This document shows positions 2,090 through 41,170 of a stretch of DNA of 64,000 nucleotides, in pieces. A program made the position numbers and the translations under genes. Source of the stretch: SAR202 cluster bacterium bin22. GTDB taxonomy: Bacteria > Chloroflexota > Dehalococcoidia > Lucifugimonadales > UBA3495. The notes beneath the pieces are model-generated. The model was not told the origin of the DNA and ran no database searches. It saw nothing but the letters and a program-made list of their open reading frames with translations. Within the stretch, counting starts at the first letter, position 1; each line of letters starts with the position of its first letter. The DNA is taken from assembly GCA_002238505.1 (NCBI GenBank), contig MPMM01000014.1, positions 19,845-83,844 of the forward strand. Direction: 5' to 3'.

Positions 2090-3463
<1,374 letters not shown>

Positions 3464-6361: not shown

Positions 6362-6363
6362 TC

Positions 6364-15260: not shown

Positions 15261-15305
15261 CAGGCCTGGAGAGCAGGTTTTTCCCTGCCTGTTGCCAGGG
15301 CAGGG

Positions 15306-28475: not shown

Positions 28476-29156
28476 TCAGCGTTCGAGGTCGTCGAGGATT
28501 CCACACCGCACCGCCCACACCACCATCTCCTGGTTCGAACCGGACGCCGTCTTGTCGTGAATCCGGTAGATGGTGTTCCGCACATTGGAGCGGCTGGTTC
28601 CAAACTCCTCCGCGATCTGAGCGTAGGACAACCCTTCGCAGAACTTAACCAGGATATCCCGCTCCCGGGGAGTGAGCACACTCGCCTCCGGGGAGCGGGA
28701 CCGGAGGTTGTCATGGCGTATGCGGCTGGCCGCGCGGCGCAGTTCGTTGGCCGTAAGCTGGAAACGCCCCTCGGCAACATCTCGCAGGGACTCCACCAGA
28801 CGGTCGGCGCTGGAGTCCTTGACCAGGTAGCCCGTCGCGCCCGCCGCCACCGACTCGACTACAGCCTCGGAAGAGTTGGAAGCAGTCAACATCAGCACCC
28901 GGATCTCCGGTTGCAGTTCCGTAATGTCGCGGCAGGCATCGATGCCATTCTTCACCGGCATGAGCAGGTCCATGACTATCACGTCAGGGTCCAACTCTCG
29001 CGCCATCTGGACTGCTTCCTCCCCGTCGTGGGCCACGCCGACAACGTCGAACTCGCCCGAGTGCCTGAGCACCTGCCGGATGCCCTGGCCCACTATCGGA
29101 TGGTCGTCTGCAACCAGGACCCGTTTTTTCCGATTACCTGACATATCAACCTCCAA
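28476..29156 (-). CDS. NarL/LuxR-family response regulator
   Basis: Receiver domain (VLVADDHP..., DLLMP) plus LuxR HTH (LTPRERDILVKFCEGLSYAQIAEEF). Confidence 0.9.
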   Translation of the reverse strand: MEVDMSGNRKKRVLVADDHPIVGQGIRQVLRHSGEFDVVGVAHDGEEAVQMARELDPDVIVMDLLMPVKNGIDACRDITELQPEIRVLMLTASNSSEAVVESVAAGATGYLVKDSSADRLVESLRDVAEGRFQLTANELRRAASRIRHDNLRSRSPEASVLTPRERDILVKFCEGLSYAQIAEEFGTSRSNVRNTIYRIHDKTASGSNQEMVVWAVRCGILDDLER

Positions 29157-30513
29157 CTGCCGCGCGGGGCAGAGGCACGCGGCAGGTTACAGTAGTACCC
29201 CCGTTCGGTTCCGCCGGTCCGACCTCAAGTCTGCCATCCATACGCGCGGCATCGGCTTCCATTCCGGTGAACCCGCGCCCCCGACGGGCATAGTCCTCCG
29301 GCAGACCGACACCGTTGTCCGTGATGGACAGGCGTATCCATTCTTGGCCGAAATCCAGGATGACCTCGACCCGGTCTGCCTCCGAATGAAGCAGGGCATT
29401 GGTGAGGGCGTTGTGCGCCACGGAGAACAGGCCAACCCGTACATCCACTGGCAGGGGGACCTCGTCCCCCAGTTGCACCACCTCGGCGGCCACCGACGCA
29501 ACCCTCCCGAAGGTCTCGGTGTGAACCCGCAGGGTTTCCGTTAGATCAGTTCCCACGAAGACCAGGCCGGTGTCAATGGGCCGTCTCAGTTCCCAGACGA
29601 TAGATCTGGAAAGCACGGACAGGGCTGCCAGGCTGCCGCTTAGCTCCTCATTGGCATCGCCTGCGAGTGTTCGGGCCGTGTCAACACCCAGCCTAAGGGT
29701 GTAGGCGGTCTGGGCCACGGTGTCGTGGATCACCTGGGACATTTCCAGACCCTGCTCCAACAGGGCACGCTGGCGTTCCTCCGAATGGTGACGCCTGGTC
29801 CGCTCGCGCCAGGCTACCAGGTTCACACTCGACATGACAGCGTACATACAGAAAAGTCGGAGGGCCAGCACTTCCTCTTCATTGGCCTGCAGATCCAGGC
29901 CGGAGCCCACGAACAGGGACAAAACCCCGTACACCGCCGCAATCACAGTCGCCCAGAGGATGCCGACGACAAAGGACGGGCAGGCCACCGCGACCAGGGC
30001 TAAAGACGGATAGTAGGCCAGGTAATAGAAGTTGTCGAAACCACCTTCTGCGAACACCGCCGATGTGACCAGCACAAAATCCATGGCGCTGAGCGCCAGA
30101 ACCGCCGCCCAGGAAACTGACCTGCCGGTGGCCAGTCGGTAGTGTACCAAGCCGTTGCCGGAGACGTAGAAGAGATGCAGTACGACAAAGGGAAGGTAAG
30201 TGCCCCCCTGGAGATCGGGTCGGTACACCGCCTCAGCAATCACCATCAGCCAACTGGCCCAGCGCCACCAGACGGACACCCAGGCGGCATAACTCAGTGC
30301 ACTGTCGTCGGACCACCCAGCCTCTACAATCTCCCGCCGCACGGACCGGAAACCCGCCTTCAAGAACGGAAGAAGAAACCGGTTGGGCCCGACTCTGGCA
30401 TCAGCAATCTGCTTGCTCACGATTCGCCCTCTGTCACCAGGAAAACTGGCAAGGGTAGCCAATACATAACACTGCCCGAGTATAGACCAACTGCCTGACA
30501 GACCGAAGGCCAA
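29146..30513 (-). CDS. Membrane sensor histidine kinase (HisKA_3 / NarX-like)
   Basis: Multi-TM N-terminus, H-box region IHDTVAQTAY, ATPase N-box AHNALTNALLHS, DNGVG. Overlaps the regulator start by 11 nt. Confidence 0.85.
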   Translation of the reverse strand: MAFGLSGSWSILGQCYVLATLASFPGDRGRIVSKQIADARVGPNRFLLPFLKAGFRSVRREIVEAGWSDDSALSYAAWVSVWWRWASWLMVIAEAVYRPDLQGGTYLPFVVLHLFYVSGNGLVHYRLATGRSVSWAAVLALSAMDFVLVTSAVFAEGGFDNFYYLAYYPSLALVAVACPSFVVGILWATVIAAVYGVLSLFVGSGLDLQANEEEVLALRLFCMYAVMSSVNLVAWRERTRRHHSEERQRALLEQGLEMSQVIHDTVAQTAYTLRLGVDTARTLAGDANEELSGSLAALSVLSRSIVWELRRPIDTGLVFVGTDLTETLRVHTETFGRVASVAAEVVQLGDEVPLPVDVRVGLFSVAHNALTNALLHSEADRVEVILDFGQEWIRLSITDNGVGLPEDYARRGRGFTGMEADAARMDGRLEVGPAEPNGGTTVTCRVPLPRAAVGG

Positions 30514-31399
30514 AAGACACGTGTCATATGTAAGTACAAAGTGACAGGTGCACTGTTCAGACGTTCAGGCCTTCAGCCAATAAGGGCGAGATGAAAGACT
30601 GTTTGGGTTGCAGAGAAGTCGTCCGCCGGCAGCTTGCCCCGGTCCAACTTCCCCGCGGGATCAGCGAGTCCTCAATCCGCCTCGAAGTCAACGTCGGAAC
30701 CAGTCACAAAGCTGAAAGCGTTTCCGTGATTGAGGGCAAGGCCCGCGGTGACAGCGCTCGCCGCTTTCGTGAGTTCACCATCGCCGGCTCCCTGCCGGCA
30801 GAAGCCGGTTACGTTGGCGTGGACACCAGCTTTTCCATGGGAACGACGGGCTGCGCGTAATGCATTTCCCAAGGGGCTATGGAAGGCAGCAAAAGGTAGT
30901 GGAGGGTAGTGAGGGGGTGTAGAAGTTGGGCACAAAATCCGTGCGGCTTAGCTTTGAGCCCGCGCCTGATGTTTCGAGCAGCCGGGTGATTGTTTACCTG
31001 GCAACGTGGGGCGTCTTCCTGATGGCTCTTGGCTTATACCAGCTTGTTGAAACCAACAGATGAGGGGAAAGGAGGAACCGTGGCAGGGCGGAGTAACAAA
31101 ATTTTCCAGGACAAAGTTCCCTATAGCGGGACGGTCTCGCCAGGGAAGAAACGACGCCGTCCTCTGCACCGCCGACGCGGGGGAGCAGAACAAAATACGG
31201 GCAATATTTTGCGGATGTGCGCCAGGGCGGGACGACTGTGGGTTCGGCATGTGACTACTTTCTTTGCGGGTTTCACAAGGTGACGCGGGTTTCGCGCCAG
31301 CAGCTGCGGATCGTCGTCATGGCCAATTGCCAAAGGCACATGTCAAAGACTGCGCCGAAAGCAGGGGGTAGCCCAGGGTGATTTGATTTGGCTCCCCTG

Positions 31400-31560
31400 C
31401 CCGGGCGTCAGATCAAATTCGGTTTATTGGCGTTGCACTTCGTTTGTGAATTTACCCCCTCTTGTACCCTTTAGCTGACCATTGGCAACCTGCCTGAATT
31501 CCGGCTCAAGGCCGGAATGACGATTCGGATTCAGCAGTCATCATTTCAAACCTGTTGGCC
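31400..31560 (+). repeat. MITE-like repeat family A, copy 2
   Basis: Nearly identical to the reverse complement of 40919-41066, and matches 58-150 over its right half. Ends 2 nt from the stop codon of the 31563 gene. Confidence 0.8.
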
Positions 31561-31562
31561 AG

Positions 31563-33599
31563 CTATGCTTCTACCACCAGCCACCGCGCCAGCATTTCCC
31601 CGGTTCGCGCCCGGGCAATAATTTCCATTCCCTCGATGAAGAAGTCCCCTTCAATGCTGGGGCTGCTGCTGACCACCCTTACCCGGTCCGACAAAGTTCG
31701 GTGTACCATCTGCGCCAGGTTCGGGCCGCCGCCGTTGGCCAGGGTAAGAACCAGGCGGGTCTTTGGCAGGCCCCTTTCCGCCAGCCGCGCCTCAGCCCCC
31801 ACCCGCGCCGCCGCATAGTTGTCGATGTACCGGCAGTCCACCACCGCATCCCGCAGGCCGTGGCTGGACTGGCTGGCTGGGTCTTCCGCCCGGTAGCTGG
31901 TGGGTTCTGGCGCCTCATACGTCCGGTCTGCCATCAGCCGCAGGAGAGTCAGGTAGGCGGTGGCGGATGCGTGTTTGTTGGTAACCCGCACCACCGTCCC
32001 CCGACCCCGGTACCGGTCCGACGGCGCGGCCAGCGAGCCGCCCGGCGCGTAGGGCAGGGTAACGGCAAGGCTGTCCGTCAGGTCGTCGCTCCCGCCATCG
32101 GGACGGGCATTGGCGGTGTAATCGGTGTCGGCTGCCGGCGCCTGGAAGGAGTCCACCACCTCGTACCTGTCGCTTTCCGCCAGGAAGTCCCGGCTGGCGC
32201 CGGCGGGTATGGCCGGAACATCCCGCAACCGCCAGATTTCCTGCGGGCCACGGCTGGCTGCCAGGCGGTAGCGGAAAGCCACCGAGTTTTCCACGCCGTC
32301 ACTGCCATTGTCCCAGGCCAGGTCCGAGAAGTAGGGCCCCGAACCACTGGTATCCCGCAAGGTGGCCCGCGCCGATGTGTGGGCGCCCACGTTGCGGTGC
32401 CCCGCGTCTTCCAGCAGCAGGTAGCCCCGCCCATCCAGGTAAAGGCGCCCGTTTTCTTCCTCTGCCAGTCCGGAAAGGGCCCGGTCTGCCGGAAGCCGCC
32501 ACATCGCCCTGGGTTCGGTGGCTACCAGGGTCTGTCCCTGGTCCAGCCTGCGGTGGGTGGGGCTGAAGCCGGCCCAGGTGAGGATGCTGTTGGCGATGCT
32601 GCCGGTGGAAAGGGAGGACTGGTTGAACAGGTTGTAAAGGGGCCACTGGGCCAGCAGGTGCAGGTCGTCCCGCGCCTCGCAGCAGGAAACGTACCCCAGT
32701 TGCGGGTCCCTTTCCGGCGACAGCTTGACCAGTGAGCCGTGAAAGAAGCTGCGCCAGCCTCCGAACTGACCCCACCGGTCTGCCGTGGCGGTAGCCGAGC
32801 CATCGTGCCACAGGCCGTGCCTGGTGGCGGTGGCATTGCCGGCGTTGCCCCCACCGTCGAGAATGGTCTTCCGGTCCGCGCTGCCCTCCGCGAGGTCGGT
32901 GGCAAACAGGCGCACCGAGCTTCCGTGCAGGGCAATTTCGATGAAGTAGTCGCGCCCCGCAACCAGCGGGTCTCCCCGCCGCAGGAAGGAGGGGAACCCG
33001 AAGGTGACTTCCTCCAGCACCGTGCCATCGTCGCGGAAGCTGACCTTGAGATAGTCCCACTGGCTGGCCACCCGCAGGGCAACCCCGCTGCCGCCGTTGC
33101 TGCCGCGCCGGAATATGAAGCCGACGTGGGCGTCGGGGTCGCCAAAGTCCAGGGTGTAGATGGCCCCGCCGCCACCGATGGCGGGTTTGGCCCGTCCCCG
33201 CTCCAGGACCACGCTGGCCGGCCCGGTGGACGCCTTGTTCCAGGTCAGGCCCGGTCCCACCGGCGCCGTCCGGCCGTTCAGGTCTGCGCCCTCGGCCCCC
33301 TGGAAATTATCCAGGGGCCAGGCGAAGGCCGCCCATACCCGTTTCCCCGCATTCAGGTGACCGTGCAGGGGCGACTGCGAATTGCCCGGGGTGTACCGCT
33401 GGTCCCGGTTGCCCAGGGTAAGGCGCAACTCCGCCGGTGGCAGCCCGCGCCGGGGCCGCGATGTCGCAACTCGCCTGCCCCACCGCCACTCCAAGTCCAG
33501 CACATCGTCCGTGACCTCTTCCCGGTATTCGCCGTTGCTTTCTCCCCAGGTGCCGTTGCCGTTCCAGTCCACCCAAATCCGCCAATGGGGACTAATCAT
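31563..33599 (-). CDS. Phage minor/distal tail-like protein with large central insert
   Basis: Start set at ATG 33597-33599, after ggaggt. The N-terminus (WRIWVDWNGNGTW...LRLTLGNRDQRYTPGN) and C-terminus (LVLTLANG...LSDRVRVV...GDFFIEGMEI) resemble siphovirus distal-tail (Dit-like) proteins as recalled. Sits last in the structural block. Confidence 0.4.
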   Translation of the reverse strand: MISPHWRIWVDWNGNGTWGESNGEYREEVTDDVLDLEWRWGRRVATSRPRRGLPPAELRLTLGNRDQRYTPGNSQSPLHGHLNAGKRVWAAFAWPLDNFQGAEGADLNGRTAPVGPGLTWNKASTGPASVVLERGRAKPAIGGGGAIYTLDFGDPDAHVGFIFRRGSNGGSGVALRVASQWDYLKVSFRDDGTVLEEVTFGFPSFLRRGDPLVAGRDYFIEIALHGSSVRLFATDLAEGSADRKTILDGGGNAGNATATRHGLWHDGSATATADRWGQFGGWRSFFHGSLVKLSPERDPQLGYVSCCEARDDLHLLAQWPLYNLFNQSSLSTGSIANSILTWAGFSPTHRRLDQGQTLVATEPRAMWRLPADRALSGLAEEENGRLYLDGRGYLLLEDAGHRNVGAHTSARATLRDTSGSGPYFSDLAWDNGSDGVENSVAFRYRLAASRGPQEIWRLRDVPAIPAGASRDFLAESDRYEVVDSFQAPAADTDYTANARPDGGSDDLTDSLAVTLPYAPGGSLAAPSDRYRGRGTVVRVTNKHASATAYLTLLRLMADRTYEAPEPTSYRAEDPASQSSHGLRDAVVDCRYIDNYAAARVGAEARLAERGLPKTRLVLTLANGGGPNLAQMVHRTLSDRVRVVSSSPSIEGDFFIEGMEIIARARTGEMLARWLVVEA

Positions 33600-33634
33600 C
33601 CCTTCAATTACCTCCAGCGAAAAACTCCTGCCCC

Positions 33635-34078
33635 TTAGCTCCAGACGTCCAGCGTCACCGGACCCGACTGCTGAAACCTGGCCGTGAACCGCACCAGCCC
33701 GACCCGGCTGCCGTCGGTGACGCTGCCGCTGACCTGGTAGCTGAGGCAAAGGAACCGGCCGGTGACCCGGCGCTGCCCCGTACCCCTGCCTGCCGGGCCA
33801 TAACTGACCGTTACCACCTGGCCCACTATGCCCGCCAGCACCGCGTCGGGACCCGTCACGGGCGTATCGTCGAACAGGCCTTGAAGCGTGAACTCCTGTA
33901 CGGGTTCAAGCCCGGCCACCAGTTGCCGCGCATCGTCATTCAGGCCCGTAACGTCCAGGGCCGCCACCAGCAGGCCCAGGGGACCCACCGCTTCGACGCA
34001 AGCGGACAGGTCCTGGGCCACCCCATTGACGTCGGTTACCTCGATGTAGCTGCGACCCGCCACCGGCGCCTTGGCCAT
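33635..34078 (-). CDS. Putative phage tail tube / major tail protein
   Basis: 147 aa. Position and size fit, and the pattern IEVTD..G...DLS..V..V......LDVTGL......G.....F.L.GLFDD is tail-tube-like. Weak, based on recall only. Confidence 0.4.
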   Translation of the reverse strand: MAKAPVAGRSYIEVTDVNGVAQDLSACVEAVGPLGLLVAALDVTGLNDDARQLVAGLEPVQEFTLQGLFDDTPVTGPDAVLAGIVGQVVTVSYGPAGRGTGQRRVTGRFLCLSYQVSGSVTDGSRVGLVRFTARFQQSGPVTLDVWS

Positions 34079-34131
34079 AAGTACCTCCCTCCCTGCCGGT
34101 TTCCCGGCTATCCTTGTTAGCGACGGCAGAC

Positions 34132-34614
34132 CTACCCACTCACATACCCCTGCACCTGGAAGGCGACGCCCCAGTAGCTGGCCTTGCCGTAGCTTACGCG
34201 TCCGCCCTCGGAGGCACGGGTCAGGCGGAACCAGTCCACCGCCCCTCCGGAACCGGTGGCGTCCTCCACCTGGGCCCTTACCGAACCCGGGCCGGTGGGG
34301 GCAACGTAGGCCGCCAGTTCGTCCCAGGCCTGGGCAGCGTCGCCGGAACTGGTGAGAATGAGCACCTCAAGACCGTAGGCAACATCGTCGCCGGCCAGCG
34401 TACCGTTGTATTCGGCCAGGGGACTGCCGGTCCGGATAATGGCGGCCGGCAATTCCGTGATCGCGTCCGGGGGCTCGCCATATACCCTTACTCCCGACAG
34501 ACGGCCCAGCCGCCTCGCCAGTTCATCCCTCACTGCAATCAATGCCACTTCAAACCCCCCAATTCCATTAGCGATTATTCGCGACTGTTGGTGACTGGTC
34601 GTGGATGAATACAT
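34132..34614 (-). CDS. Putative head-tail joining / tail terminator-like protein
   Basis: 160-aa ORF, 7 nt after the connector gene. Size and position match neck proteins. No strong motif. Confidence 0.35.
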   Translation of the reverse strand: MYSSTTSHQQSRIIANGIGGFEVALIAVRDELARRLGRLSGVRVYGEPPDAITELPAAIIRTGSPLAEYNGTLAGDDVAYGLEVLILTSSGDAAQAWDELAAYVAPTGPGSVRAQVEDATGSGGAVDWFRLTRASEGGRVSYGKASYWGVAFQVQGYVSG

Positions 34615-34620
34615 CCTTAA

Positions 34621-35460
34621 TCAAAGGGGCAGTTTCCGGTAAGCCGCCACCAGGGACTTCAACTCCCGCCCGGGGTCCACGGCCTCTCCCGCCGGACGGC
34701 GGGGGTCCTCAAACCCCCGCGCCGCCCGGTCGCGGGTGTGCCATAGCTGGACTGCCAGTTGCAGGCAGCCCTCGGATACCGGCCCGGGGTAGCGGTACAG
34801 CCTGATGGGAGTCGCCGTGGTGTGCGCCGCTGCCTCGGTGCCGTTGACGCCCCGTTCCAGCGTTGCTTCCGGCGCGGCCACGGCGGTCACGTAAACCTGC
34901 TCGTCGTCCAGCGCCAGCGTGTGGCCCGGGGCCAGGGCATCAGCGTCCGACAGCGTTACCGTGGTATCCCCGGCGGCCAGGGCGGCGCCGGTGGTCGCGC
35001 CCGTTTCCACCAGGTCCAGCCGGTAGCCCCAGCGGCCCGCAATTTCCACCAGGGCGTGGCAGTCCGTCCGGCGGCACAGGGGCGTGCATACCGGTTCAAT
35101 GGCCATGCGGGTGTAGGGACGCCCCCACGCCCTCTCGGGGGATGCATCCATGGGATAGAGCCGGTAGGAGGCCGTTCGCCACTTTGGCTGTCCCGCCCCG
35201 CCGTCAAACTTGGCCGCCACCCGCGCCGAGTCCACGGATATCAGGTCCGGCACCAGCAACTGCTGCAGCCCCGGCGACCACCAGTTGGCCTCAAACTGCC
35301 GGGTGGTCTCCAGCACGTAGAAATGGCGGTTGCAGTAACCGTCAATCAGCCGCGACGCTTCCTCCAGCAGGTTCAACAGCCGCCGGTCGTGGGCATTGCC
35401 GCTGATGTTCAGCGCCCCGGCGGATTTCAGCGTATCCAAATCACAATAGGCATTGGTCAT
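34621..35460 (-). CDS. Phage gp6-like head-tail connector domain protein (extended, 279 aa)
   Basis: Start moved to ATG 35458-35460. The N-terminus YCDLDTLKSAGALNISGNAHDRRLLNLLEEASRLIDGYCNRHF is the typical gp6-like connector signature. Confidence 0.6.
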   Translation of the reverse strand: MTNAYCDLDTLKSAGALNISGNAHDRRLLNLLEEASRLIDGYCNRHFYVLETTRQFEANWWSPGLQQLLVPDLISVDSARVAAKFDGGAGQPKWRTASYRLYPMDASPERAWGRPYTRMAIEPVCTPLCRRTDCHALVEIAGRWGYRLDLVETGATTGAALAAGDTTVTLSDADALAPGHTLALDDEQVYVTAVAAPEATLERGVNGTEAAAHTTATPIRLYRYPGPVSEGCLQLAVQLWHTRDRAARGFEDPRRPAGEAVDPGRELKSLVAAYRKLPL

Positions 35461-35611
35461 ATTCGCCAGTCTCCTGATTCTGTTCTCCCTGATTCGTCCC
35501 GTTCCGTAGGGGCGCACGGCCGTGCGCCCCTACCCCCAATCCCCCCGACCCTCCAATCACCCCCAACCCAACCATCACCCATCGGAGGGCGAAGGGATAA
35601 GGGAATGTGTC

Positions 35612-36943
35612 CTAGACCCCGGTGATGTTGTACTGGAGGGCCGTGTGGGTGGCGGTGCCGCGGCTGCCCGTCCGCTCCATGAAGGCCAGGCGCATGCTCA
35701 CCACCATCACGTTCTGACGCTTCTGAATGTCGCGGGTGGTCTCGATGAGCAGTTCCCGGCGGAACCCCAGCCGCCACTGGGTGCGGTTGGTAATGAGCAG
35801 ACGGCCCTTCGTGTTGGAGTTGGCCCCGTCGGTAACCTTGCCGTCGGCATCGGCGGCTGCCATCTGCTCCGAAACGATTACCGGAATTCCCTCAACCGCG
35901 CCCAGTTGCCCCCGCAGCAGGGTGGCGCTGTTGCCCATCTTGTCCAGGGTGCGGAAATTGCTGACGGTCAGGGACTTGATGTAGGTGCTGACGTCCATGA
36001 TGTACGCCAGTTCCGAGGGCCGTACCCCGTACCTGCCCAGCTTGCCCCGGATCTCGTTGAACATGCCGTCGCTGACCGCCGCGTTGTGGTTGTTGGCCTG
36101 GGTGGCGTTGTCCACCAGGGGCAGGTGCAGCAGGCCGTCGAAGCCCACCAGCCAGTGGCCCTTGCCGGCGGTGGAGGCCATGATGGTGGCCCCGTCGGCG
36201 TTGATGTTGTTGGTGGCGGTGGTGTCGGCGTTCAGCAGCACATCGTCAATCACCTCCACCGCGTTGCGCACCAGCGAACTGCGCACCTCCTCGGCCATGG
36301 CGATGACCGCGTCCTCGTCCAGGGTCAGCGACCAAGGCACCTCGGCCACCAGTTCGTGGGCGGTCAGGGTCTGCCGGGCGGTGGACGGAGCCGAGCCGGT
36401 AACCGCCGTATTCTCCGTCCCCGGGTACCAGTTGACCCCGCCCAGCTGCAGGGGAATCTCAAAGGGATTGGTGGGCATATCCACCCGCGAGAAGAGGGGA
36501 GCGATCAGGGTTTCCAGGTTGACGTCCGACCACAGGGCCGAGGCCTCGGCGGTGGCCACCAGTTCATCGCCCGAGCCGGCGGTGGCGCTGTCCAGGGCTG
36601 CCTTCAGGTTGTTCTGCCAGTCCTCCAGCATCCGCTGGTTCAGCCCGGCCGGTTCGCGAAGCTGGGCGTTTAGGACGCTGCGCACGTAGGCCAGCGACAG
36701 GGCGTCCATGCCCCGGTACTTGCCGTGGGTTACCCGGGGCCGGTCCTCGCCGCCGTACCGGGCCAGCAGGGCCCGCCGTTCCCCGGCCCGCCACTGCTCC
36801 TGCACCTGTCCCAGTTGTGCGGCGATGCGGCCTACCTCCTCCTGCAGGGGAGCCAGGTCCGAGTCCATCCGCGACTCATAGAAGTCCCGTATCCCTGCCA
36901 CTTCCCGCCTGATCAGTTCCAGGTCCTGTGTTCCCAGTGTCAT
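35612..36943 (-). CDS. HK97-family phage major capsid protein
   Basis: Start at ATG 36941-36943, after aaggag. N-terminal coiled-coil scaffold-like region, capsid core, and C-terminus LLITNRTQWRLGFRRELLIETTRDIQKRQNVMVVSMRLAF. Confidence 0.85.
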   Translation of the reverse strand: MTLGTQDLELIRREVAGIRDFYESRMDSDLAPLQEEVGRIAAQLGQVQEQWRAGERRALLARYGGEDRPRVTHGKYRGMDALSLAYVRSVLNAQLREPAGLNQRMLEDWQNNLKAALDSATAGSGDELVATAEASALWSDVNLETLIAPLFSRVDMPTNPFEIPLQLGGVNWYPGTENTAVTGSAPSTARQTLTAHELVAEVPWSLTLDEDAVIAMAEEVRSSLVRNAVEVIDDVLLNADTTATNNINADGATIMASTAGKGHWLVGFDGLLHLPLVDNATQANNHNAAVSDGMFNEIRGKLGRYGVRPSELAYIMDVSTYIKSLTVSNFRTLDKMGNSATLLRGQLGAVEGIPVIVSEQMAAADADGKVTDGANSNTKGRLLITNRTQWRLGFRRELLIETTRDIQKRQNVMVVSMRLAFMERTGSRGTATHTALQYNITGV

Positions 36944-37021
36944 GCAATTTCTCCTTTTCCACGTTTGTTTCATTCGTCTTTTCCCCGTTACGAGGACGCA
37001 CGGCCGTGCGTCCCTACGGCG

Positions 37022-37753
37022 TCAGGGGCCCGGAGTGATGGACCGCAACGCCTCCACCACGTCCTCCACCGTCACCCCGGGCCCTGGCGCCTCCGGCCCC
37101 CGCTGCCGCAGCAGGGCATTGCGGTTGGCGGGCACGGGCACCGCGCTCACCTCCACCAGTTCCTGCTCCAGGAACCGCACGCCCAGGAAGGCCCCCGTCA
37201 CCGGGTCCCGCCGCTCCTCGTACCGGAGGGGCTGGAACCCCACCGACACGCCCTGCTGGTAGCCGCTGCGGTACAGGGCCGCCACCTCGCGGGCGAAGGG
37301 GGCCGGGGCGAACTCCATCCGCGCCAGCAACTGCCCCGGCTCCGGCCACACCGCCAGCGCCCGCCCGATGGCCGGCAGGCCGTAGTTATGGGCCCACAGC
37401 AGCACCGGATTGCGCAGGTAGGCCTGCAGCCGCCACCCCTGGGCCACCACCACGTCGCCGTGCCGGTCCACCTCCTCGTTGGAAATGACAAAGGTCAGGG
37501 GCGGACCGCCCTCGCCGCCCTCGCCGTCCTTGCCGATGCTGGCCGCCACACCGCCCTCCTCCATCACCACCCCGTTGGCTGCCCCGTTTGCCACGTCCTC
37601 TGCCATATCGCGTCCGGCGGCCGGACCCGTCCCCAACTTCCGCAGCAGGGGCGCATCGGCCAGCCCCCGCCGGTACCGCTCCAGCGACTCCAGCAACTGC
37701 TCCCGTTCCGCCTCCCGGCCCTCACCCGACTCCCCCGGAAAATTCACCGTCAA
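37022..37753 (-). CDS. HK97-family prohead protease
   Basis: FVISNEEVDRHGDVV...LLWAHN protease core. A TTG start at 37751-37753 follows ggaggagg. The ORF-track N-terminus would run through a terminator hairpin. Confidence 0.8.
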   Translation of the reverse strand: MTVNFPGESGEGREAEREQLLESLERYRRGLADAPLLRKLGTGPAAGRDMAEDVANGAANGVVMEEGGVAASIGKDGEGGEGGPPLTFVISNEEVDRHGDVVVAQGWRLQAYLRNPVLLWAHNYGLPAIGRALAVWPEPGQLLARMEFAPAPFAREVAALYRSGYQQGVSVGFQPLRYEERRDPVTGAFLGVRFLEQELVEVSAVPVPANRNALLRQRGPEAPGPGVTVEDVVEALRSITPGP

Positions 37754-37808
37754 TCTCGTGCCTCCTCCTTTCCCGCCTTCCTGCCTTCTGCCCCGGGCAG
37801 GGATTGCG

Positions 37809-37847
37809 CAAAACAAAGAGGGACTAACCCACAAAGGTCAGTCCCTC
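37809..37847 (-). terminator. Intrinsic terminator-like hairpin just upstream of the prohead protease gene
   Basis: Minus strand: gagggactgacctttgtgggttagtccctc followed by tttgttttg. Confidence 0.55.
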
Positions 37848-38005
37848 GCGTACATCTGCGGACGCTGCCCGCGCCCCACTATTCGGTTGCCCGTAGTCCG
37901 TCGGCCGGGATACTCGAATCCTCCCCTGCCTGTTCCGACACTATTCAGGCTAGTGAGCCGTCATCTAGCTCGTCAATGACCAACTGTCACCTCAATAAAC
38001 CCCCA

Positions 38006-38436
38006 CCCCCCGTTCGCCCTGAGCCTGTCGAAGGGCCTGAGCCCCCACACCCGTTCACCCTGAGCCTGTCGAAGGGCCCATCCCCAAGTCATGTCGCCCT
38101 GAGCGCAGCCGAAGGGCCTGAACTCCACCGCGCCCAAAACGTCTCGGGCGCCGTTCCGCGCCTGGTAGGCCAGGATTTTAGACTCTTCGGCAGGCTCAGA
38201 GTGACATTGACTTTGGGCGTGGCTGGCTTGTTCTTTCAGGGCAATGGCCTTTCAACTTGCTGGCAAATTACACAGGAAGCTTTGGCAAGAAGTCATGTCG
38301 CCCTGAGCGCAGCCGAAGGGCCTGAACTCCACCGCGCCCAAAACGTCTCGGGCGCCGTTCGGCGCCTGGTTGGCAAGGACTTTAGACTCTTCGGCAAGCT
38401 CAGAGTGACATTGACTTTGGGCGTGGGTGGTTTGCG
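38006..38436. repeat. Composite R1 repeat block upstream of the methyltransferase (MITE-like units with inverted R1 arms)
   Basis: R1 cores at 38006-38036 and 38050-38075. The unit 38091-38207 has inverted arms atgtcgccctgagcgcagccgaagggc / actcttcggcaggctcagagtgacat. A second unit lies at 38293-38410. About 270 bp is repeated directly at 40197-40470. Confidence 0.85.
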
Positions 38437-38523
38437 CGCTCCCTTGCTCAACCCCCGCCCCTTCCCTCCGTGTTACAATCTCCCCGGCAAGCCGGATACG
38501 ACCATCACCGCGCTGAATCAAAA

Positions 38524-40152
38524 ATGACCAACGCCCTCTACTACGGCGACAACCTCCAGGTGCTGCGCGACCATATCCCCGACGAGTCGGTGGACCTGGT
38601 ATATCTCGACCCGCCCTTCAACTCCAACGCCTCCTACAACGTCCTCTTCCGCGAAAAGTCGGGCGAGGAGTCGCCGGCCCAGATCAAGGCCTTCACCGAT
38701 ACCTGGGAGTGGACGCTGGAGACGGAACGGACCTTCGAGGAGGACATCATCCTCAACCCCGGCACGCCCCCGGCGGTGAAGGAGATGATCAGCGCCTTCC
38801 GCGACTTCATCGGGCGCAACGCGATGATGGCCTACCTGGTGATGATGACGCCCCGCCTGGTGGAACTGCGCCGCGTCCTCAAGCCCACCGGCAGCCTCTA
38901 CCTCCACTGCGACCCCACCGCCAGCCATTATTTGAAGATTGTGATGGACACGGTGTTTGGGGCGAAGAGTTTCAGGAGTGAAATCATATGGAGGCGAACA
39001 AATTCAAAGGGTTTGGCCTTCAAGGGATTTCCTAACAACTCTGATACCTTGCTTTATTACTCCAAAGGCGACGCATTTGCGTGGAATCGGCCTTTCATTG
39101 CTCACGACCCTGAATATGTAGAAAGGTTTTATCGCCACGTAGAACCTGAAACTGGGCGGCGTTACAGGCTAAGTGATCTCACTAACCCAAATAAGAACAG
39201 GCCAAATTTAACGTATGAATGGAATGGTCACACCAGGGTTTGGCGGTGGACCAGAGATAGGATGCAGAAAGCCGACGACGATGGACTAATTCATTACTCC
39301 TCTACTGGACTGGCTTCTCAAAAGCGCTATCTCGACGAAATGCAAGGCAATCCAGTTGATACCATCTGGGAAGATATTGCGCCTATCCAAGCGCAGTCCC
39401 CCGAACGCCTCGGCTACCCCACCCAGAAACCCGAGGCCCTCCTCGAACGCATCATCCAGGCCTCCTCCAACGAGGGGGACGTGATTCTGGACCCCTTCTG
39501 CGGGTGCGGGACGGCGGTGGCGGCGGCGCAGAAACTCAACCGCCAGTGGCTGGGCATCGACATCACCCACCTGGCCGTCTCCCTGATGAAATCCCGCCTT
39601 AAGGACATGTTCAACCTGGATCCGGGCCGGGACTACGAGGTGGTGGGGGAACCCCGGGACGTGGGCAGCGCCCGGGCCCTCTTCGAGCAGGACCCCTTCC
39701 AGTTCCAGTTCTGGGCCGTCTCCCTGCTGGAGGCCGTGCCCCAGGACCAGCAGAAGCGCGGCGCCGACCGGGGCATTGACGGCCTCTTCTACTTCATTGA
39801 CGGCCCCCGCCGCACTCCCCAGAAGGTGGTGGTGCAGGTGAAGGGCGGCGGCGCCCAGGTGCGCGACGTCCGCGACCTCAAGGGGGTGCTGGAACGGGAG
39901 AAGGCGGCCCTGGGCCTGTTCATATCCCTGCAGGAACCCACCCGCCCCATGCGCGAGGAAGAGGCCTCCGGCGGCTTCTACCAGTCGGAACTGTGGCAGC
40001 GCGCCTACCCCAAAGTCCAGATCCGCACCATCGAGCAGTTGCTGGCCGGTCACGACTTCGACCTGCCCCCGCGCCAGTCCGCCTACCAGGCGGCCGCCCG
40101 AGTCCGCCGCCCCGAGGGCGAGCAGACCACCCTGGAAGAACTGGCAGGCTAA
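38524..40152 (+). CDS. Beta-class N6A/N4C DNA methyltransferase fused to a C-terminal Mrr-like (PD-(D/E)xK) domain
   Basis: Motif IV DPPF (LVYLDPPFNSN) precedes motif I DPFCGCGT, which is the beta permutation order. C-terminal GADRGIDG...VVVQVKGG is restriction-endonuclease-like. Start moved to ATG 38524 (MTNALYYGDN). Confidence 0.85.
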   Translation: MTNALYYGDNLQVLRDHIPDESVDLVYLDPPFNSNASYNVLFREKSGEESPAQIKAFTDTWEWTLETERTFEEDIILNPGTPPAVKEMISAFRDFIGRNAMMAYLVMMTPRLVELRRVLKPTGSLYLHCDPTASHYLKIVMDTVFGAKSFRSEIIWRRTNSKGLAFKGFPNNSDTLLYYSKGDAFAWNRPFIAHDPEYVERFYRHVEPETGRRYRLSDLTNPNKNRPNLTYEWNGHTRVWRWTRDRMQKADDDGLIHYSSTGLASQKRYLDEMQGNPVDTIWEDIAPIQAQSPERLGYPTQKPEALLERIIQASSNEGDVILDPFCGCGTAVAAAQKLNRQWLGIDITHLAVSLMKSRLKDMFNLDPGRDYEVVGEPRDVGSARALFEQDPFQFQFWAVSLLEAVPQDQQKRGADRGIDGLFYFIDGPRRTPQKVVVQVKGGGAQVRDVRDLKGVLEREKAALGLFISLQEPTRPMREEEASGGFYQSELWQRAYPKVQIRTIEQLLAGHDFDLPPRQSAYQAAARVRRPEGEQTTLEELAG

Positions 40153-40164
40153 TTCCCCCATCCC

Positions 40165-40475
40165 CCATTCACCCCGTGCCCGTCGAAGGGTCCATCCCCC
40201 ACCCCCCGTTCGCCCTGAGCCTGTCGAAGGGCCCATCCCCAAGTCATGTCGCCCTGAGCGCAGCCGAAGGGTCTGAACTCCACCGCGCCCAAAACGTCTT
40301 GGGTTCCCTTAAGATTTCATTGGGCCAGGCTTCTAGACTCTTCGGCAAGCTCAGAGTGACATTGACCTTGGGCGTGGGTGGCTTGTTCTTTCAGGGCAAT
40401 GGCGTTCTAAATTACACAGGACTCTTTGGCACAAAATCATGTCGCCCTGAGCGCAGCCGAAGGGCCTGAGCCCCC
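40165..40475. repeat. Composite R1 repeat block downstream of the methyltransferase (direct copy of 38046-38320)
   Basis: Long near-identical stretch: ccgttcgccctgagcctgtcgaagggcccatccccaagtcatgtcgccctgagcgcagccgaaggg...gactcttcggcaagctcagagtgacattgac...ttctttcagggcaatggc... Confidence 0.85.
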
Positions 40476-40603
40476 ACGGCTAACGCAACCCCCTCAAAGA
40501 AACCCCCGCCTATGTGATACTAGGTATTGACCGCCCTGGCGCTGCCTGATACACTTGATATAGCGATACTAATTATTCGTATTGGCAATGTTTTAGGGCA
40601 ATC

Positions 40604-40918
40604 ATGCTCTCGAGAAAGCTTAACCCGCAAAATCTGACGACTGCGATACCGGCCCTCGGCTCCGTCCGCCGCCTGCTGGGTGTGGCCGTGCTGTTGGCGG
40701 CCCTGGCGGTGGTTAGCCTGGCCGTGGGCGAATATCGCCAGCTCTACGGAGTAGCAGACTTCCCCACGTCCGACCATGACTCGGTTTCCGCCATGGACTG
40801 CCCACGGCTTTGCCTTGCCGACGAAACCGCCCCGGCCGCCGCCACGTCCGAGGCGCAAACCCCGGGTATCCTGAACCTGCGCGGCTTCCGCCACACCATC
40901 CCCTTCACCCCCGACTAG
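40604..40918 (+). CDS. Hypothetical small signal-anchored protein
   Basis: 104 aa with an N-terminal hydrophobic helix (LLGVAVLLAALAVVSLAV) and high third-position GC. No family recognised. Confidence 0.35.
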   Translation: MLSRKLNPQNLTTAIPALGSVRRLLGVAVLLAALAVVSLAVGEYRQLYGVADFPTSDHDSVSAMDCPRLCLADETAPAAATSEAQTPGILNLRGFRHTIPFTPD

Positions 40919-41133: not shown

Positions 41134-41170
41134 TTAAACCCCGCCCCCAATTCGGTATAATCTCCCCAGC

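What the first reader, a model, noticed from the sequence alone, without database searches (positions are those of the whole stretch)
31563..37847. Intact-looking phage head-tail gene block that lacks terminase, portal, tape measure, lysis and integration genes
Six tightly packed co-oriented minus-strand genes appear uninterrupted. In order they are an HK97-type prohead protease, an HK97-fold capsid with an N-terminal coiled-coil, a long gp6-like connector, two ~150-aa neck/tail-tube-position proteins, and a 678-aa distal-tail-like protein with a large extra central domain.

Portal and terminase normally sit upstream of the protease. Here that position holds a terminator hairpin, a MITE block and an opposite-strand methyltransferase. 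No chaperone or tape-measure gene lies between the tube-like gene and the distal-tail-like gene.

A simple decaying prophage would be expected to show frameshifts, as the ParB-methylase at 59.6-61 kb does. This block shows none. Possible explanations are a recently truncated prophage, a domesticated particle module (GTA-like or satellite-like) whose other parts are encoded elsewhere, or a capsid-forming island that hijacks helper functions.
Basis: partly seen in the sequence, partly recalled or inferred. Interest (0 to 1): 0.7.

Follow-up and report, generated by a model that had tools for sequence, protein, structure and literature searches.

The report
Domesticated phage head-tail operon in Dehalococcoidia
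Six intact phage head, neck and tail-tip genes sit among housekeeping genes of an uncultured marine or sponge Chloroflexota bacterium and are conserved under selection across many related species, so they look like a gene-transfer-agent-like particle system rather than a dying prophage.

Summary
Six intact, co-oriented minus-strand genes (31563-37753) encode:
- an S78 prohead protease
- an HK97-family capsid protein
- a gp6-like adaptor
- a tail-terminator-like protein
- a tail-tube-like protein
- a 678-aa protein that is a gp27/Mu-gp44-type tail hub with an inserted lectin-like domain, not a distal tail protein

The 64-kb window contains no portal, terminase, tape measure, integrase or lysis gene. 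The surrounding genes are core host genes (DnaA, Obg, PriA, SecDF, PdxST).

The block is not a recent truncation.
- Capsid relatives occur in 250 species-level Dehalococcoidia genomes, and the 80 best are at least 70% identical.
- All six genes were detected in 21 of those 80.
- Pairwise dN/dS is 0.07-0.40.
- Divergence of the tube and hub genes tracks that of flanking host genes.

In relatives, terminase and portal exist but are detached: 24 kb away on one chromosome, and alone among metabolic genes on a contig whose composition matches the window. A sister clade still carries an integrase.

A promoter-like site followed by a terminator hairpin upstream of the protease is conserved across 14 species.

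Best reading: a domesticated, multi-locus, GTA-like particle system, new for this phylum. Particle production and DNA transfer are untested.

The parts
37947..37976 (-). Promoter-like site, TTGACG-N18-TAGCCT, upstream of the operon
   Evidence: Read directly from the sequence. The same motif lies upstream of the protease gene in 20 related loci. The simple sigma-70 scan did not report it, so promoter activity is inferred.
37808..37847 (-). Conserved hairpin GAGGGACTGACC-TTTGT-GGGTTAGTCCCTC followed by a T-run, about 55 nt before the protease start. Candidate attenuator, antitermination target or operator.
   Evidence: Reported by the terminator scan. In an alignment of 14 species, RNAalifold predicts 11 pairs, none broken, with one-sided changes only. 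The stem sequence also lies upstream of the protease in L025, L027, L029, L030, L063 and L087. No Rfam family matches.
37022..37753 (-). HK97-type (S78) prohead maturation protease, 243 aa as called by JGI. The first ~85 residues are poorly conserved.
   Evidence: Pfam PF04586 scores 27.8 bits (cut-off 21); phrog_80 and phrog_617 hit at E=1e-17 to 1e-20. His122 and Ser170 are conserved in 67 homologues. dN/dS is 0.32-0.40.
35612..36943 (-). HK97-family major capsid protein, 443 aa, with a helical N-terminal region of about 120 aa that resembles a scaffolding (delta) domain
   Evidence: Pfam PF05065 scores 38.5 bits; phrog_10 hits at E=1e-14. The 120 best relatives are all 72-91% identical. dN/dS is 0.07. 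GC3 is 0.88 against a window mean of 0.76. The AF2 model was poor (pLDDT 41), so the fold was not verified by structure.
35504..35535 (.). GC-rich palindrome (core 28 nt, GTAGGGGCGCACGGCCGTGCGCCCCTAC) just after the capsid gene. A variant lies at 36990-37019 between the protease and capsid genes.
   Evidence: Found. The same palindrome sits next to the capsid gene in L019, L021, L049 and L095. Its function is not tested.
34621..35460 (-). Head-tail adaptor, 279 aa: a gp6-like N-terminal domain plus a C-terminal extension
   Evidence: phrog_442 hits at E=2.8e-8. Pfam PF05135 scores 18 bits, below its cut-off. Homologues were detected in 72 of the 80 genome loci. dN/dS is 0.32-0.35.
34132..34548 (-). 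Tail-terminator-like neck protein, 138 aa
   Evidence: phrog_17840 gives a full-length match at E=5e-21. A PDB profile search found nothing meaningful. dN/dS is 0.13-0.17. The gene is absent in one sub-lineage, type D.
33635..34078 (-). Tail-tube-like protein, 147 aa
   Evidence: phrog_10528 major tail protein gives a full-length match at E=4.6e-11. There is no match in PDB sequences or in cultured phage records. dN/dS is 0.20-0.21.
31563..33599 (-). Tail hub (gp27 / Mu gp44 / Tal-like), 678 aa, with a ConA/CBM66-like lectin domain inserted at about residues 125-270
   Evidence: The AF2 model has pLDDT 91.4 and pTM 0.89. Foldseek against PDB hits 3d37 (E=1e-10, target TM 0.63), Mu gp44, VgrG, T5 pb3 and 80alpha Tal, with CBM66 at TM 0.66-0.70. 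Against BFVD, A0A1B1IPF7 matches at TM 0.75-0.79. In the profile search many hits lack the central domain. dN/dS is 0.18-0.19.
31391..31565 (.). Dispersed repeat of about 170 nt just downstream of the hub gene. An inverted copy lies at 40934-41141, so the pair brackets the block plus the methyltransferase. A third copy lies at 43-152.
   Evidence: Found. A related copy (87.6% over 105 nt) lies 1.6 kb upstream of the terminase gene in L197. Probably a MITE- or REP-like repeat rather than an element end.
28476..30513 (-). Histidine kinase and NarL/LuxR-type response regulator directly downstream of the hub gene. A possible regulator, not shown to be one.
   Evidence: The pair is absent at this position in the closest relatives L010 and L011. 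A homologous pair (46-48% identity) lies 1.1 kb from the portal gene in L171.

Best explanation
**What it is.** The block is the head, neck and tail-tip operon of an ancient phage-derived element. The element has been fixed in the chromosome of a large Dehalococcoidia (Chloroflexota) clade and is kept by selection. It is a domesticated, multi-locus, gene-transfer-agent-like particle system (a 'viriform').

**How it would work (inferred steps marked).**
1. The conserved promoter fires, and transcription pauses or ends at the conserved leader hairpin unless a trans-acting factor lets it through. This is antitermination- or attenuation-type control, as at lambda PR'-tR' or in the Caulobacter GTA (inferred).
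2. Read-through makes the protease, the capsid protein (the most constrained gene, with the strongest codon bias), the adaptor, the terminator-like protein, the tube protein and the hub.
3. The capsid protein assembles on a portal, and a terminase fills the head. Both are encoded at a separate locus (shown in relatives, inferred for this genome).
4. The protease removes the N-terminal scaffold-like domain (inferred by analogy with HK97).
5. The adaptor and terminator-like protein join the head to a very short, tape-measure-less tube. The trimeric hub caps the tube, and its lectin-like domains bind a cell-surface glycan (inferred).

Whether the particles carry random host DNA is not known.
For: **Breadth and integrity**
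- Capsid relatives were found in 250 species-representative genomes. The 80 best are all Dehalococcoidia, SAR202 or Chloroflexota, at least 70% identical, and many sit on 2-4.7 Mb chromosomes.
- Gene order is conserved, and all six genes were detected in 21 of the 80 loci.

**Selection**
- dN/dS is 0.07-0.40 against the closest relatives, at dS 0.3-0.7.
- Compared copies are free of stop codons except one adaptor copy in L020.

**Vertical descent**
- L010 and L011 share the downstream PdxS/PdxT synteny, and host-gene identities (74-97%) bracket block identities (77-95%).
- In eight species where the block lies next to DnaA-Obg, tube and hub identity correlates with Obg identity (rho 0.85 and 0.81).

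**Only structural genes, in a host setting**
- No integrase homologue occurs in the window or in the 80 loci.
- Neighbouring genes are heterogeneous host genes plus a few IS transposases.
- The window is otherwise housekeeping genes.

**Split loci in relatives**
- Terminase and portal lie 2-9 kb upstream in one sub-lineage.
- They lie 24 kb away on the L087 chromosome.
- They lie downstream of the hub gene in L172.
- In L197 they stand alone among metabolic genes. Its tetranucleotide signature correlates 0.944 with the window, above the closest relatives, and it shares a window repeat.

**Regulation and origin**
- The promoter-like site and leader hairpin are conserved across species.
- Capsid and protease have the highest GC3 in the window.
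- An integrase-bearing sister clade and canonical phage relatives give a plausible ancestor.

**Literature**
- A GTA review states that GTAs look like remnant phages made only of packaging and structural genes, are encoded at several loci, and arose several times (PMC11841831).
- Searches found no Chloroflexota GTA report.
Against: - No particle, expression or DNA-content data exist.
- Terminase and portal were not shown in the window's own genome. The L197 link rests on composition and one repeat.
- No tape measure, distal tail protein, small terminase or lysis gene was identified for this lineage, so a complete particle cannot be reconstructed.
- Some relatives carry split or truncated copies (hub gene in L018, L065, L082 and L172; adaptor gene in L020). 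This could be decay or long-read sequencing error.
- Several sub-lineages lack detectable tube and hub genes near the capsid.
- Genes other than the capsid evolve faster than flanking host genes (72-82% against about 90% identity).
- The block's chromosomal position differs between sub-clades.
- The capsid gene shows at least one inter-lineage replacement, so inheritance is not purely vertical.
Confidence: 0.6

Rival explanations
1. The block is part of a phage satellite or helper-dependent element (a capsid-forming island) that is still selfish. It makes its own head and neck and relies on a helper phage or other loci for the remaining functions. Selection on its own transmission keeps it intact.
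For: - A sister clade (capsid 58-64% identical) forms elements of about 15 kb. They carry a tyrosine integrase, small and large terminase, portal, protease, capsid and adaptor, with or without tube and hub genes. This layout resembles capsid-forming satellites.
- The block's position differs between sub-clades.
- The capsid gene was exchanged between lineages.
- About 170-nt inverted repeats bracket the block plus the methyltransferase.
Against: - No integrase, excision, replication or regulatory module lies in the window or next to any of the 80 main-clade loci.
- No tRNA gene was found in the window.
- Host housekeeping genes abut the block directly.
- Terminase and portal are separated from the block by tens of kb of host genes in relatives.
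- Tube and hub genes are present, which capsid-forming satellites as described lack (own knowledge of cf-PICIs).
- The bracketing repeat has further copies elsewhere, so it is a dispersed repeat.
Confidence: 0.15
2. The block is a domesticated particle used for something other than gene transfer, for example a killing or adhesion particle, or a protein- or cargo-carrying shell. The retained head and lectin-bearing tip serve a host function unrelated to DNA exchange.
For: - Conservation and selection are as described for the best explanation.
- The lectin-like domain on the hub suggests binding to cell surfaces.
- The absence of a tape measure suggests an atypical tail that may not be competent for DNA injection.
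Against: - A large terminase and a portal of the same lineage are conserved in at least 816 protein clusters on host chromosomes.
- They stay paired in every locus seen, which argues that DNA packaging is retained.
- The prohead protease and scaffold-like capsid N-terminus indicate a normal HK97-type maturation pathway.
Confidence: 0.17
3. The block is a decaying remnant of a prophage or integrative element, recently truncated, with no function. It looks intact only by chance.
For: - Portal, terminase, tape-measure, lysis and integration genes are all missing from the locus.
- MITE-like repeats and a mobile-looking methyltransferase sit where upstream genes would be.
- A few relatives have frameshifted copies.
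Against: - The same reduced gene set is intact in many species-level genomes, with dN/dS of 0.07-0.40 at dS up to above 1.
- A non-coding regulatory leader is conserved.
- Codon bias is the strongest in the window.
- The same junction appears in several independent assemblies.
Confidence: 0.05

Closest known systems
Gene transfer agents (RcGTA of Rhodobacter capsulatus and alphaproteobacterial relatives; CcGTA of Caulobacter; other independently derived GTAs such as Bartonella BaGTA, Brachyspira VSH-1, Desulfovibrio Dd1, Methanococcus VTA)
   Same: - A phage-derived head-tail gene cluster holding only structural (and, elsewhere, packaging) genes.
- No integration or replication module.
- Encoded at more than one locus.
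- Conserved across a whole host clade under purifying selection.
- Elevated GC and codon bias.
- Gene order of protease, capsid, adaptor, tube, hub.
- A leader terminator suggests antitermination control, as reported for CcGTA (title and abstract seen; general features from PMC11841831).
   Different: - Different phylum. No Chloroflexota GTA was found in the literature searched.
- No detectable close sequence relationship to cultured phages (capsid at most 25% identical). Homology to RcGTA proteins was not tested.
- No tape-measure, chaperone or distal-tail genes between tube and hub.
- Terminase and portal are detached from the head genes, whereas in RcGTA they head the same cluster (own knowledge).
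- Particle production and DNA transfer are untested.
Capsid-forming phage-inducible chromosomal islands (cf-PICIs) and similar phage satellites
   Same: - A small element encoding an HK97-type capsid, prohead protease and head-tail adaptor, and missing many phage functions.
- The integrase-bearing sister clade (L094, L095) has a comparable size and content.
   Different: - The window's clade has no integrase, no replication or regulation module, and no identified att site.
- It carries tube and hub genes.
- Its packaging genes are dispersed among host genes.
- It is embedded next to core genes near dnaA.
HK97-like temperate siphovirus late operon (terminase, portal, protease, capsid, connectors, tube, tape measure, hub)
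   Same: - The families of the six proteins and their relative order.
- Relatives with capsids 37-50% identical show the canonical order of portal, protease, capsid.
- A promoter followed by a leader terminator resembles the lambdoid late-operon PR'-tR' arrangement (own knowledge).
   Different: - Terminase, portal, tape measure and its chaperones, distal tail protein, fibres, lysis genes and all early genes are missing.
- The block is conserved as this reduced set across species rather than being a unique deletion.
Baseplate or tail hub proteins: T4 gp27, Mu gp44, Neisseria prophage tail protein 3d37, VgrG, siphovirus Tal (T5 pb3, 80alpha)
   Same: The 678-aa protein shares their fold (Foldseek E=1e-10 to 1e-6, target TM 0.55-0.63).
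   Different: - It carries a ConA/CBM66-like domain of about 150 aa inserted in the hub, and has no gp5-like needle.
- Sequence identity is 6-11%.
- Its nearest full-length structural match is an unnamed protein of an uncultured virus (A0A1B1IPF7, 22% identity).

Membership tests
Gene transfer agent (functional class) | Phage-derived structural and packaging genes without integration, replication or lysogeny genes | tested here: met
   The six genes are all structural. No integrase homologue occurs in the window or in the 80 related loci. Neighbours are host genes.
Gene transfer agent (functional class) | Conserved in a host clade by mainly vertical descent under purifying selection | tested here: met
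   Capsid relatives occur in 250 species genomes. dN/dS is 0.07-0.40. Synteny and host-like divergence are shown. Caveat: the capsid gene was replaced between lineages at least once.
Gene transfer agent (functional class) | Genes for one particle spread over several chromosomal loci | tested here: inconclusive
   Shown in relatives: terminase and portal lie 24 kb from the capsid gene on one chromosome and are detached in L172 and L197. For the window's own genome the only evidence is a composition match and a shared repeat with L197.
Gene transfer agent (functional class) | Particles package essentially random host DNA, too little to carry the encoding genes, and transfer it to recipients | not testable with these tools
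   This needs particle purification, sequencing of the packaged DNA and transfer assays.
Gene transfer agent (functional class) | Production controlled by host regulators | tested here: inconclusive
   A conserved promoter-like site and leader hairpin exist. A two-component system is adjacent, and its homologue lies next to a portal gene elsewhere. No regulator was identified.
RcGTA-like GTA family (homology group) | Sequence homology of head-tail proteins to RcGTA g1-g15, or classification by GTA-Hunter | not tested
The nearest cultured-phage capsids are at most 25% identical.
Capsid-forming PICI / phage satellite | Integrase with att sites plus regulatory and replication modules | tested here: not met
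   No integrase is present. No tRNA gene occurs in the window. No such genes lie in the flanks. They are present only in the sister clade.
Capsid-forming PICI / phage satellite | Encodes head and packaging genes but no tail genes | tested here: not met
   Tube-like and hub genes are present. Packaging genes are absent from the locus.
Defective (decaying) prophage | Pseudogenes, relaxed selection, and a patchy or unique occurrence | tested here: not met
   The ORFs are intact, dN/dS is well below 1, and the same reduced set recurs across species.
Encapsulin nanocompartment | An HK97-fold shell gene with cargo genes, and without a prohead protease, portal or connector or tail genes | tested here: not met
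   An S78 protease, adaptor, terminator-like, tube and hub genes accompany the capsid gene.
Tailocin / contractile injection system | Tail and baseplate genes (a sheath if contractile) without capsid genes | tested here: not met
   Capsid and protease genes are present. No sheath or baseplate wedge genes were found.

The most novel reading that the evidence does not exclude
This is an independently domesticated gene transfer agent of Chloroflexota. It is fixed near the replication origin and inherited across a large clade of marine and sponge-associated Dehalococcoidia, including SAR202-type genomes. It builds an HK97-type head with an unusual tape-measure-less stub tail tipped by a lectin-bearing hub. 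Its packaging genes lie at a separate locus, and it is switched on by antitermination at a conserved leader hairpin. The sharp capsid-gene replacement between lineages would then be a trace of the exchange it mediates.
Probability: 0.35. Interest if true: 0.8.

Novelty: new member of a known kind. Interest (0 to 1): 0.66.

Why it matters
Experimentally verified gene transfer agents are few, and they are best studied in Alphaproteobacteria. How often phages have been domesticated in this way is an open question (PMC11841831).

Dehalococcoidia of this type, including SAR202-type genomes, come from marine and sponge metagenomes and are known here only as metagenome-assembled genomes.

A conserved particle system in at least 250 of their species would point to a route of gene exchange in these populations. 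It would give a new, independent case for studying domestication, because an integrase-bearing sister clade is still available for comparison. It would also supply concrete targets for metatranscriptomics, for virome read mapping and for heterologous expression: the capsid gene, the leader hairpin and the detached terminase-portal locus.

It also matters for annotation. Virus-detection pipelines already list fragments of this locus as viral contigs (IMG/VR hits), which may inflate counts of Chloroflexota 'prophages'.

Tried and rejected
1. **Capsid structure.** Prediction with 19 close homologues failed (pLDDT 40.9), so no fold search was run. The HK97 assignment rests on Pfam and PHROGs.
2. 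**PDB profile searches.** The tube-like and terminator-like proteins gave nothing meaningful. tblastn of the tube protein against cultured phage records found no match.
3. **Tape measure in relatives.** In type D relatives a 2-3.6 kb gap between the tube and hub genes was checked. It holds an opposite-strand VWA gene and antisense ORFs, not a tape-measure gene.
4. **Portal in the window's own genome.**
   - The portal family search listed only its top 120 of at least 816 clusters. None matched a contig length of the window-like chromosomes.
   - The portal of L187, from a sample that also holds the window population, is not among the listed proteins and could not be looked up. Its composition does not match the window (0.77).
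   - Extending the window's left end by 10 kb found ribosomal and NAD genes only. The look-up for the right end failed.
5. **Shared regulation of the two loci.** The leader motif was not found near any terminase-portal locus, so co-regulation through the same element is not supported.
6. **Rfam.** No family matches the leader.
7. **Lost downstream genes.** Remnants of the small genes that follow the hub gene in relatives (clusters 35 and 49) were sought in the 1-kb gap after the hub gene. None was found.
8. **Inverted repeats as element ends.** The ~170-nt repeats bracketing 31391-41141 were considered and rejected as ends. The repeat has a third copy at 43-152 and a relative in L197.
9. **Literature.** Searches for a Chloroflexi, Chloroflexota, SAR202 or Dehalococcoidia GTA found nothing relevant.

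Full report
**1. The observation**

The six minus-strand ORFs are real, intact and tightly packed:

| Gene | Coordinates | Size |
|---|---|---|
| protease | 37022-37753 | 243 aa |
| capsid | 35612-36943 | 443 aa |
| adaptor | 34621-35460 | 279 aa |
| g4 | 34132-34548 | 138 aa |
| g5 | 33635-34078 | 147 aa |
| g6 | 31563-33599 | 678 aa |

Gaps between them are 35-151 nt.

- Protease: Peptidase_S78, 27.8 bits (cut-off 21).
- Capsid: Phage_capsid, 38.5 bits (cut-off 24.2); phrog_10 at E=1e-14.
- Adaptor: phrog_442 head-tail adaptor, E=2.8e-8. Pfam gp6-like scores only 18 bits, below its cut-off.
- g4: phrog_17840 tail terminator, E=5e-21, full length.
- g5: phrog_10528 major tail protein, E=4.6e-11, full length.

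The protease keeps a conserved His122 and Ser170 in 67 homologues, in a sequence context I take to be the HK97-type catalytic pair (own knowledge).

g6 has no Pfam or annotated PHROG match. An AlphaFold model built on 47 homologues is confident (pLDDT 91.4, pTM 0.89).
- Against the PDB it matches baseplate and tail hubs: Neisseria prophage tail protein 3d37 (E=1e-10, target TM 0.63), Mu gp44, MuSo2 3cdd, VgrG, T5 pb3, 80alpha Tal and lambda tip proteins.
- A separate match to the CBM66 jelly roll (TM 0.66-0.70) covers the central part.
- Against predicted viral structures, the best match is a 716-aa protein of an uncultured virus with the same overall architecture (TM 0.75-0.79, 22% identity). 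Next come siphovirus minor tail proteins, several annotated as ConA-like lectin.
- An exhaustive profile search finds 5389 representatives. Many are about 500 aa long and match only the parts that flank the central domain.

So g6 is a tail hub (Tal/gp27-like) with an inserted lectin-like domain, not a distal tail protein.

**2. What is missing, and the setting**

- tblastn with portal and terminase proteins of relatives finds nothing in the 64 kb.
- There is no tRNA gene.
- The rest of the window encodes core host functions: Obg and DnaA at the left end, prolyl oligopeptidase, GcvT, PPK2, PriA, Def, CCA-adding enzyme, SecD/SecF, Tmk, PdxS/PdxT, a two-component system, methyltransferases, CobW, FecCD, dehydrogenases and one TnpB.
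- Tube and hub genes are 35 nt apart, so no chaperone or tape-measure gene fits between them.
- Identical proteins and the same methyltransferase-to-protease junction occur in two JGI metagenome assemblies, an ENA assembly and NCBI MAG GCA_026710505.1. The 37.8-38.0 kb junction is therefore not an assembly artefact.

**3. Distribution**

- The capsid protein has more than 1351 database relatives. The top 120 are all 72-91% identical and about 444 aa long, and many lie on Mb-scale contigs.
- A scan of one genome per GTDB species found relatives in 250 genomes. The 80 best (at least 70% identity) are all titled Dehalococcoidia, SAR202 cluster or Chloroflexota, and many are closed 2.6-4.7 Mb chromosomes.
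- tblastn of the six proteins shows a conserved order of protease, capsid, adaptor, (g4), (g5), (g6).
- All six were detected in 21 of the 80 loci. Five of six were detected in a further 17, counting one cut by a contig edge.
- The capsid is always the best-conserved gene (70-95%). The others are protease 44-77%, adaptor 30-77%, g4 32-84%, g5 49-84% and g6 34-85%.
- Clustering of flanking ORFs defines sub-lineages with different downstream content and different, lineage-specific host flanks.
- A Pfam census of 149 non-redundant neighbouring ORFs shows a heterogeneous set of host enzymes plus a few IS transposases. No phage family recurs.

**4. Selection and descent**

- Against the closest relatives (L010 and L011, sponge MAGs; dS 0.3-0.7), dN/dS is 0.07 for the capsid, 0.13-0.21 for g4, g5 and g6, and 0.32-0.40 for the protease and adaptor. 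More distant comparisons give 0.1-0.5. Compared copies have no internal stops except one adaptor copy in L020.
- L010 and L011 share the downstream synteny with the window: PdxS 97%, PdxT 89%, further genes 74-94%. Their block identities (77-95%) fall in the same range.
- In eight species where the block lies directly beside DnaA-Obg, pairwise identity of tube and hub correlates with that of Obg (Spearman 0.85 and 0.81). Host proteins are more conserved (about 90%) than block proteins other than the capsid (72-82%).
- This refutes a recent truncation with neutral decay. It supports long residence with function.
- Two caveats apply. Block genes evolve faster than their neighbours. The capsid gene does not follow the pattern: between L012 and L017 it is 96.6% identical at the nucleotide level exactly over the ORF, while both flanks are 72-83%. 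That indicates a recent allelic replacement.
- In general the capsid's dS is about half that of its neighbours.
- Capsid and protease also have the highest GC3 in the window (0.88 and 0.91, against a mean of 0.76, SD 0.07, maximum 0.865 for 39 other ORFs).

**5. Where the packaging genes are**

- In one sub-lineage (type B) a 465-aa protein and a 416-aa protein lie 2-9 kb upstream of the protease, sometimes inverted. The first matches Terminase_6C weakly in Pfam; a homologue in L172 (60% identical by tblastn) hits phrog_2 terminase large subunit at E=5e-38. The second matches Phage_portal at E=3e-66.
- The portal family has at least 816 clusters at E<1e-20, again often on Mb-scale chromosomes.
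- One portal lies on the same 1,031,507-bp contig as locus L087, whose capsid locus has no portal within 10 kb. The look-up places the terminase-portal pair at about 692 kb and the capsid at about 667 kb. That is 24 kb apart, with MFS, oxidoreductase, dehydrogenase and transposase genes between them.
- In L172 the order is adaptor, g4, g5, g6, a few genes, FAD-binding oxidoreductase, terminase, portal.
- A metagenome scan found terminase-portal pairs without capsid genes on long contigs.
- One of them, L197 (164-kb contig), holds an intact 460-aa terminase and 435-aa portal (PF04860, E=8e-71) among Nuo51, aldehyde ferredoxin oxidoreductase, luciferase-like and molybdopterin enzymes.
- L197's tetranucleotide signature correlates 0.944 with the window. 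That is just below the window's own thirds (0.949-0.972) and above the closest relatives (L010 0.929). It also carries a copy of a window repeat (87.6% over 105 nt).
- This makes a detached packaging locus in the window's genome, or in a very close relative, likely. It does not prove it.

**6. Relatives outside the clade**

- IMG/VR holds short contigs with the same dispersed genes (capsid 57-83% identical). This shows that virus-detection pipelines pick this locus up.
- Capsids at 37-50% identity lie in the canonical phage order of portal, protease, capsid.
- A sister clade (capsid 58-64%) carries several extra genes:
  - a tyrosine integrase 1-2 kb upstream of the protease (phrog_1, E=3e-41)
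  - the portal immediately after the adaptor
  - then small and large terminase genes (phrog_4102; phrog_2, E=1e-37)
- On one 14.9-kb contig (L094) these genes lie together. The layout looks like a small integrative element, either a minimal prophage or a capsid-forming-satellite-like island.
- Integrase homologues are absent from the window and from all 80 main-clade loci.
- The nearest cultured-phage capsids are at most 25% identical.
- A reasonable history follows (inference): an integrative element of this family lost its integrase and early genes, its remaining genes were scattered by rearrangement, and they were kept.

**7. A conserved control region**

Upstream of the protease, reading along the minus strand, the window has:
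- TTGACG-N18-TAGCCT (37976-37947)
- a leader of about 100 nt
- the hairpin GAGGGACTGACC-TTTGT-GGGTTAGTCCCTC with a T-run (37847-37808)
- about 55 nt
- a GGAGG-type ribosome-binding site and a TTG start

The non-coding stretch is better conserved with L010 and L011 than the start of the protease ORF.

In an alignment of 14 species, the -35-like and -10-like hexamers, an ACAACCGAATAG motif and the hairpin are nearly invariant. The sequence between them varies and includes a GC hairpin whose sequence differs between species.

RNAalifold predicts 11 pairs for the terminal hairpin. None is broken and all changes are one-sided.

The promoter-like motif recurs upstream of the protease in eight further loci. 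The hairpin stem recurs in six more, with a different or inverted loop. The palindrome is therefore conserved as sequence: it could be a terminator or attenuator, or a protein-binding operator. No Rfam family matches.

A promoter followed by a short leader and a terminator ahead of late structural genes is the lambdoid PR'-tR' arrangement (own knowledge). Antitermination control is reported for the Caulobacter GTA cluster (title and abstract). I therefore propose conditional read-through as the switch. This is inference.

**8. Interpretation**

The features match what a recent review gives as typical of GTAs (PMC11841831):
- they resemble remnant phages made only of packaging and structural genes
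- they are encoded at several loci that can be far apart
- they are vertically inherited within a clade
- they have multiple independent origins

No paper linking GTAs to Chloroflexi, Chloroflexota, SAR202 or Dehalococcoidia was found.

I therefore file the block as a candidate new, independently derived GTA-like (viriform) system. Functional criteria (particles, random DNA, transfer) are untested.

| Reading | Confidence |
|---|---|
| Domesticated, multi-locus, GTA-like particle system | 0.60 |
| Domesticated particle with a function other than DNA transfer | 0.17 |
| Still-selfish satellite-like element | 0.15 |
| Functionless relic | 0.05 |

Open problems:
- There is no tape measure, distal tail protein, small terminase or lysis gene for this lineage.
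- Several sub-lineages have no detectable tube and hub genes near the capsid.
- A few relatives have split copies.
- The portal and terminase of the window's own genome are not directly shown.

**9. Scores**

- The finding is real, and more interesting than a truncated prophage.
- It is best rated a new member of a known kind.
- Interest is 0.66.
- The most novel reading (a bona fide Chloroflexota GTA with a tape-measure-less, lectin-tipped stub tail and antitermination control) has a probability of about 0.35 and would merit about 0.8.

Noticed in passing
window 37808-37976 (minus strand); alignment A10 of 14 species: A promoter-like site (TTGACG-N18-TAGCCT), a leader of about 100 nt and an invariant hairpin with a T-run lie ahead of the protease gene. 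They are conserved across species more strongly than the start of the coding region. No Rfam family matches. This is a candidate attenuator, antitermination site or operator.
   Followed up: yes
L012:9991-11332 versus L017:9990-11332: The capsid gene alone is 96.6% identical at the nucleotide level between two species whose flanking genes are 72-83% identical. The boundaries are sharp at the ORF ends. This is a recent allelic replacement of just the capsid gene. More generally the capsid's dS is about half that of its neighbours.
   Followed up: partly
window 35504-35535, 36990-37019, 41061-41092; also L019:11357-11384, L021:62-89 and 1524-1551, L049:9850-9877, L095:4169-4196: A 28-nt GC-rich palindrome (GTAGGGGCGCACGGCCGTGCGCCCCTAC) recurs, often with identical sequence, immediately before or after the capsid gene in divergent species, and at a few other sites. 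It is a REP-like element. It may act as an mRNA-stabilising or attenuating hairpin that sets capsid stoichiometry.
   Followed up: partly
window 31391-31565 and 40934-41141 (inverted); third copy at 43-152; L197:6718-6822: A dispersed repeat of about 170 nt, in inverted orientation, brackets the six-gene block plus the methyltransferase (a segment of about 9.75 kb). A related copy lies 1.6 kb upstream of the terminase gene in L197.
   Followed up: partly
window 38000-38434 and 40155-40474; related units at 1756-1962 and 9850-10220: MITE-like repeats of 145-156 nt, in tandem pairs, flank both sides of the N6/N4 methyltransferase gene, which also has an Mrr-like nuclease domain (38470-40152). 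The gene looks like a mobile insertion. A 51% identical homologue lies about 3 kb from a portal gene in L199.
   Followed up: partly
window 28476-30513; L171:8962-10672: The histidine kinase and NarL-type response regulator next to the hub gene are absent at this position in the closest relatives. Homologues of both genes (46-48% identity) lie 1.1 kb from the portal gene in another genome. This may be a regulatory link or may be coincidence.
   Followed up: partly
L094 (14.9 kb), L095, L097, L099, L198, L210, L213: A sister clade (capsid 58-64% identical) forms small elements. They carry a tyrosine integrase, small and large terminase, portal, protease, capsid and adaptor in a permuted order with the portal after the adaptor, with or without tube and hub genes. 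These are candidate capsid-forming satellites or minimal prophages of Chloroflexota.
   Followed up: partly
L170:4395-5888, L172:5517-7013; cluster 8 in 16 genome loci (e.g. L023, L050, L069): A FAD_binding_2 oxidoreductase gene of about 500 aa recurs between the hub gene and the terminase-portal pair, or just downstream of the hub gene, in many relatives. It is either a conserved neighbour marking the ancestral arrangement or cargo of the element.
   Followed up: partly
window 150-3463; L012-L020 positions ~1-9000: The window's left end holds obg and dnaA. In several relatives the block lies directly beside DnaA-Obg. The element therefore sits in the origin-proximal housekeeping region of the chromosome.
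   Followed up: partly
L018:14737-15828, L065:14643-16729, L082:14700-16745, L172:1975-3950, L020:11399-12265: Some relatives carry split or truncated hub or adaptor genes. This is either real decay in those lineages or frameshift errors in long-read assemblies.
   Followed up: no
window 15066-15263 (within ORF 14568-15260): The peptide deformylase gene ends in a tandem array of an 18-nt unit (about 9 copies). It encodes a low-complexity C-terminal extension.
   Followed up: no
window 57978-59144 (minus strand): This is a TnpB-like gene (OrfB_IS605 plus a Cas12f-like TNB domain).
   Followed up: no
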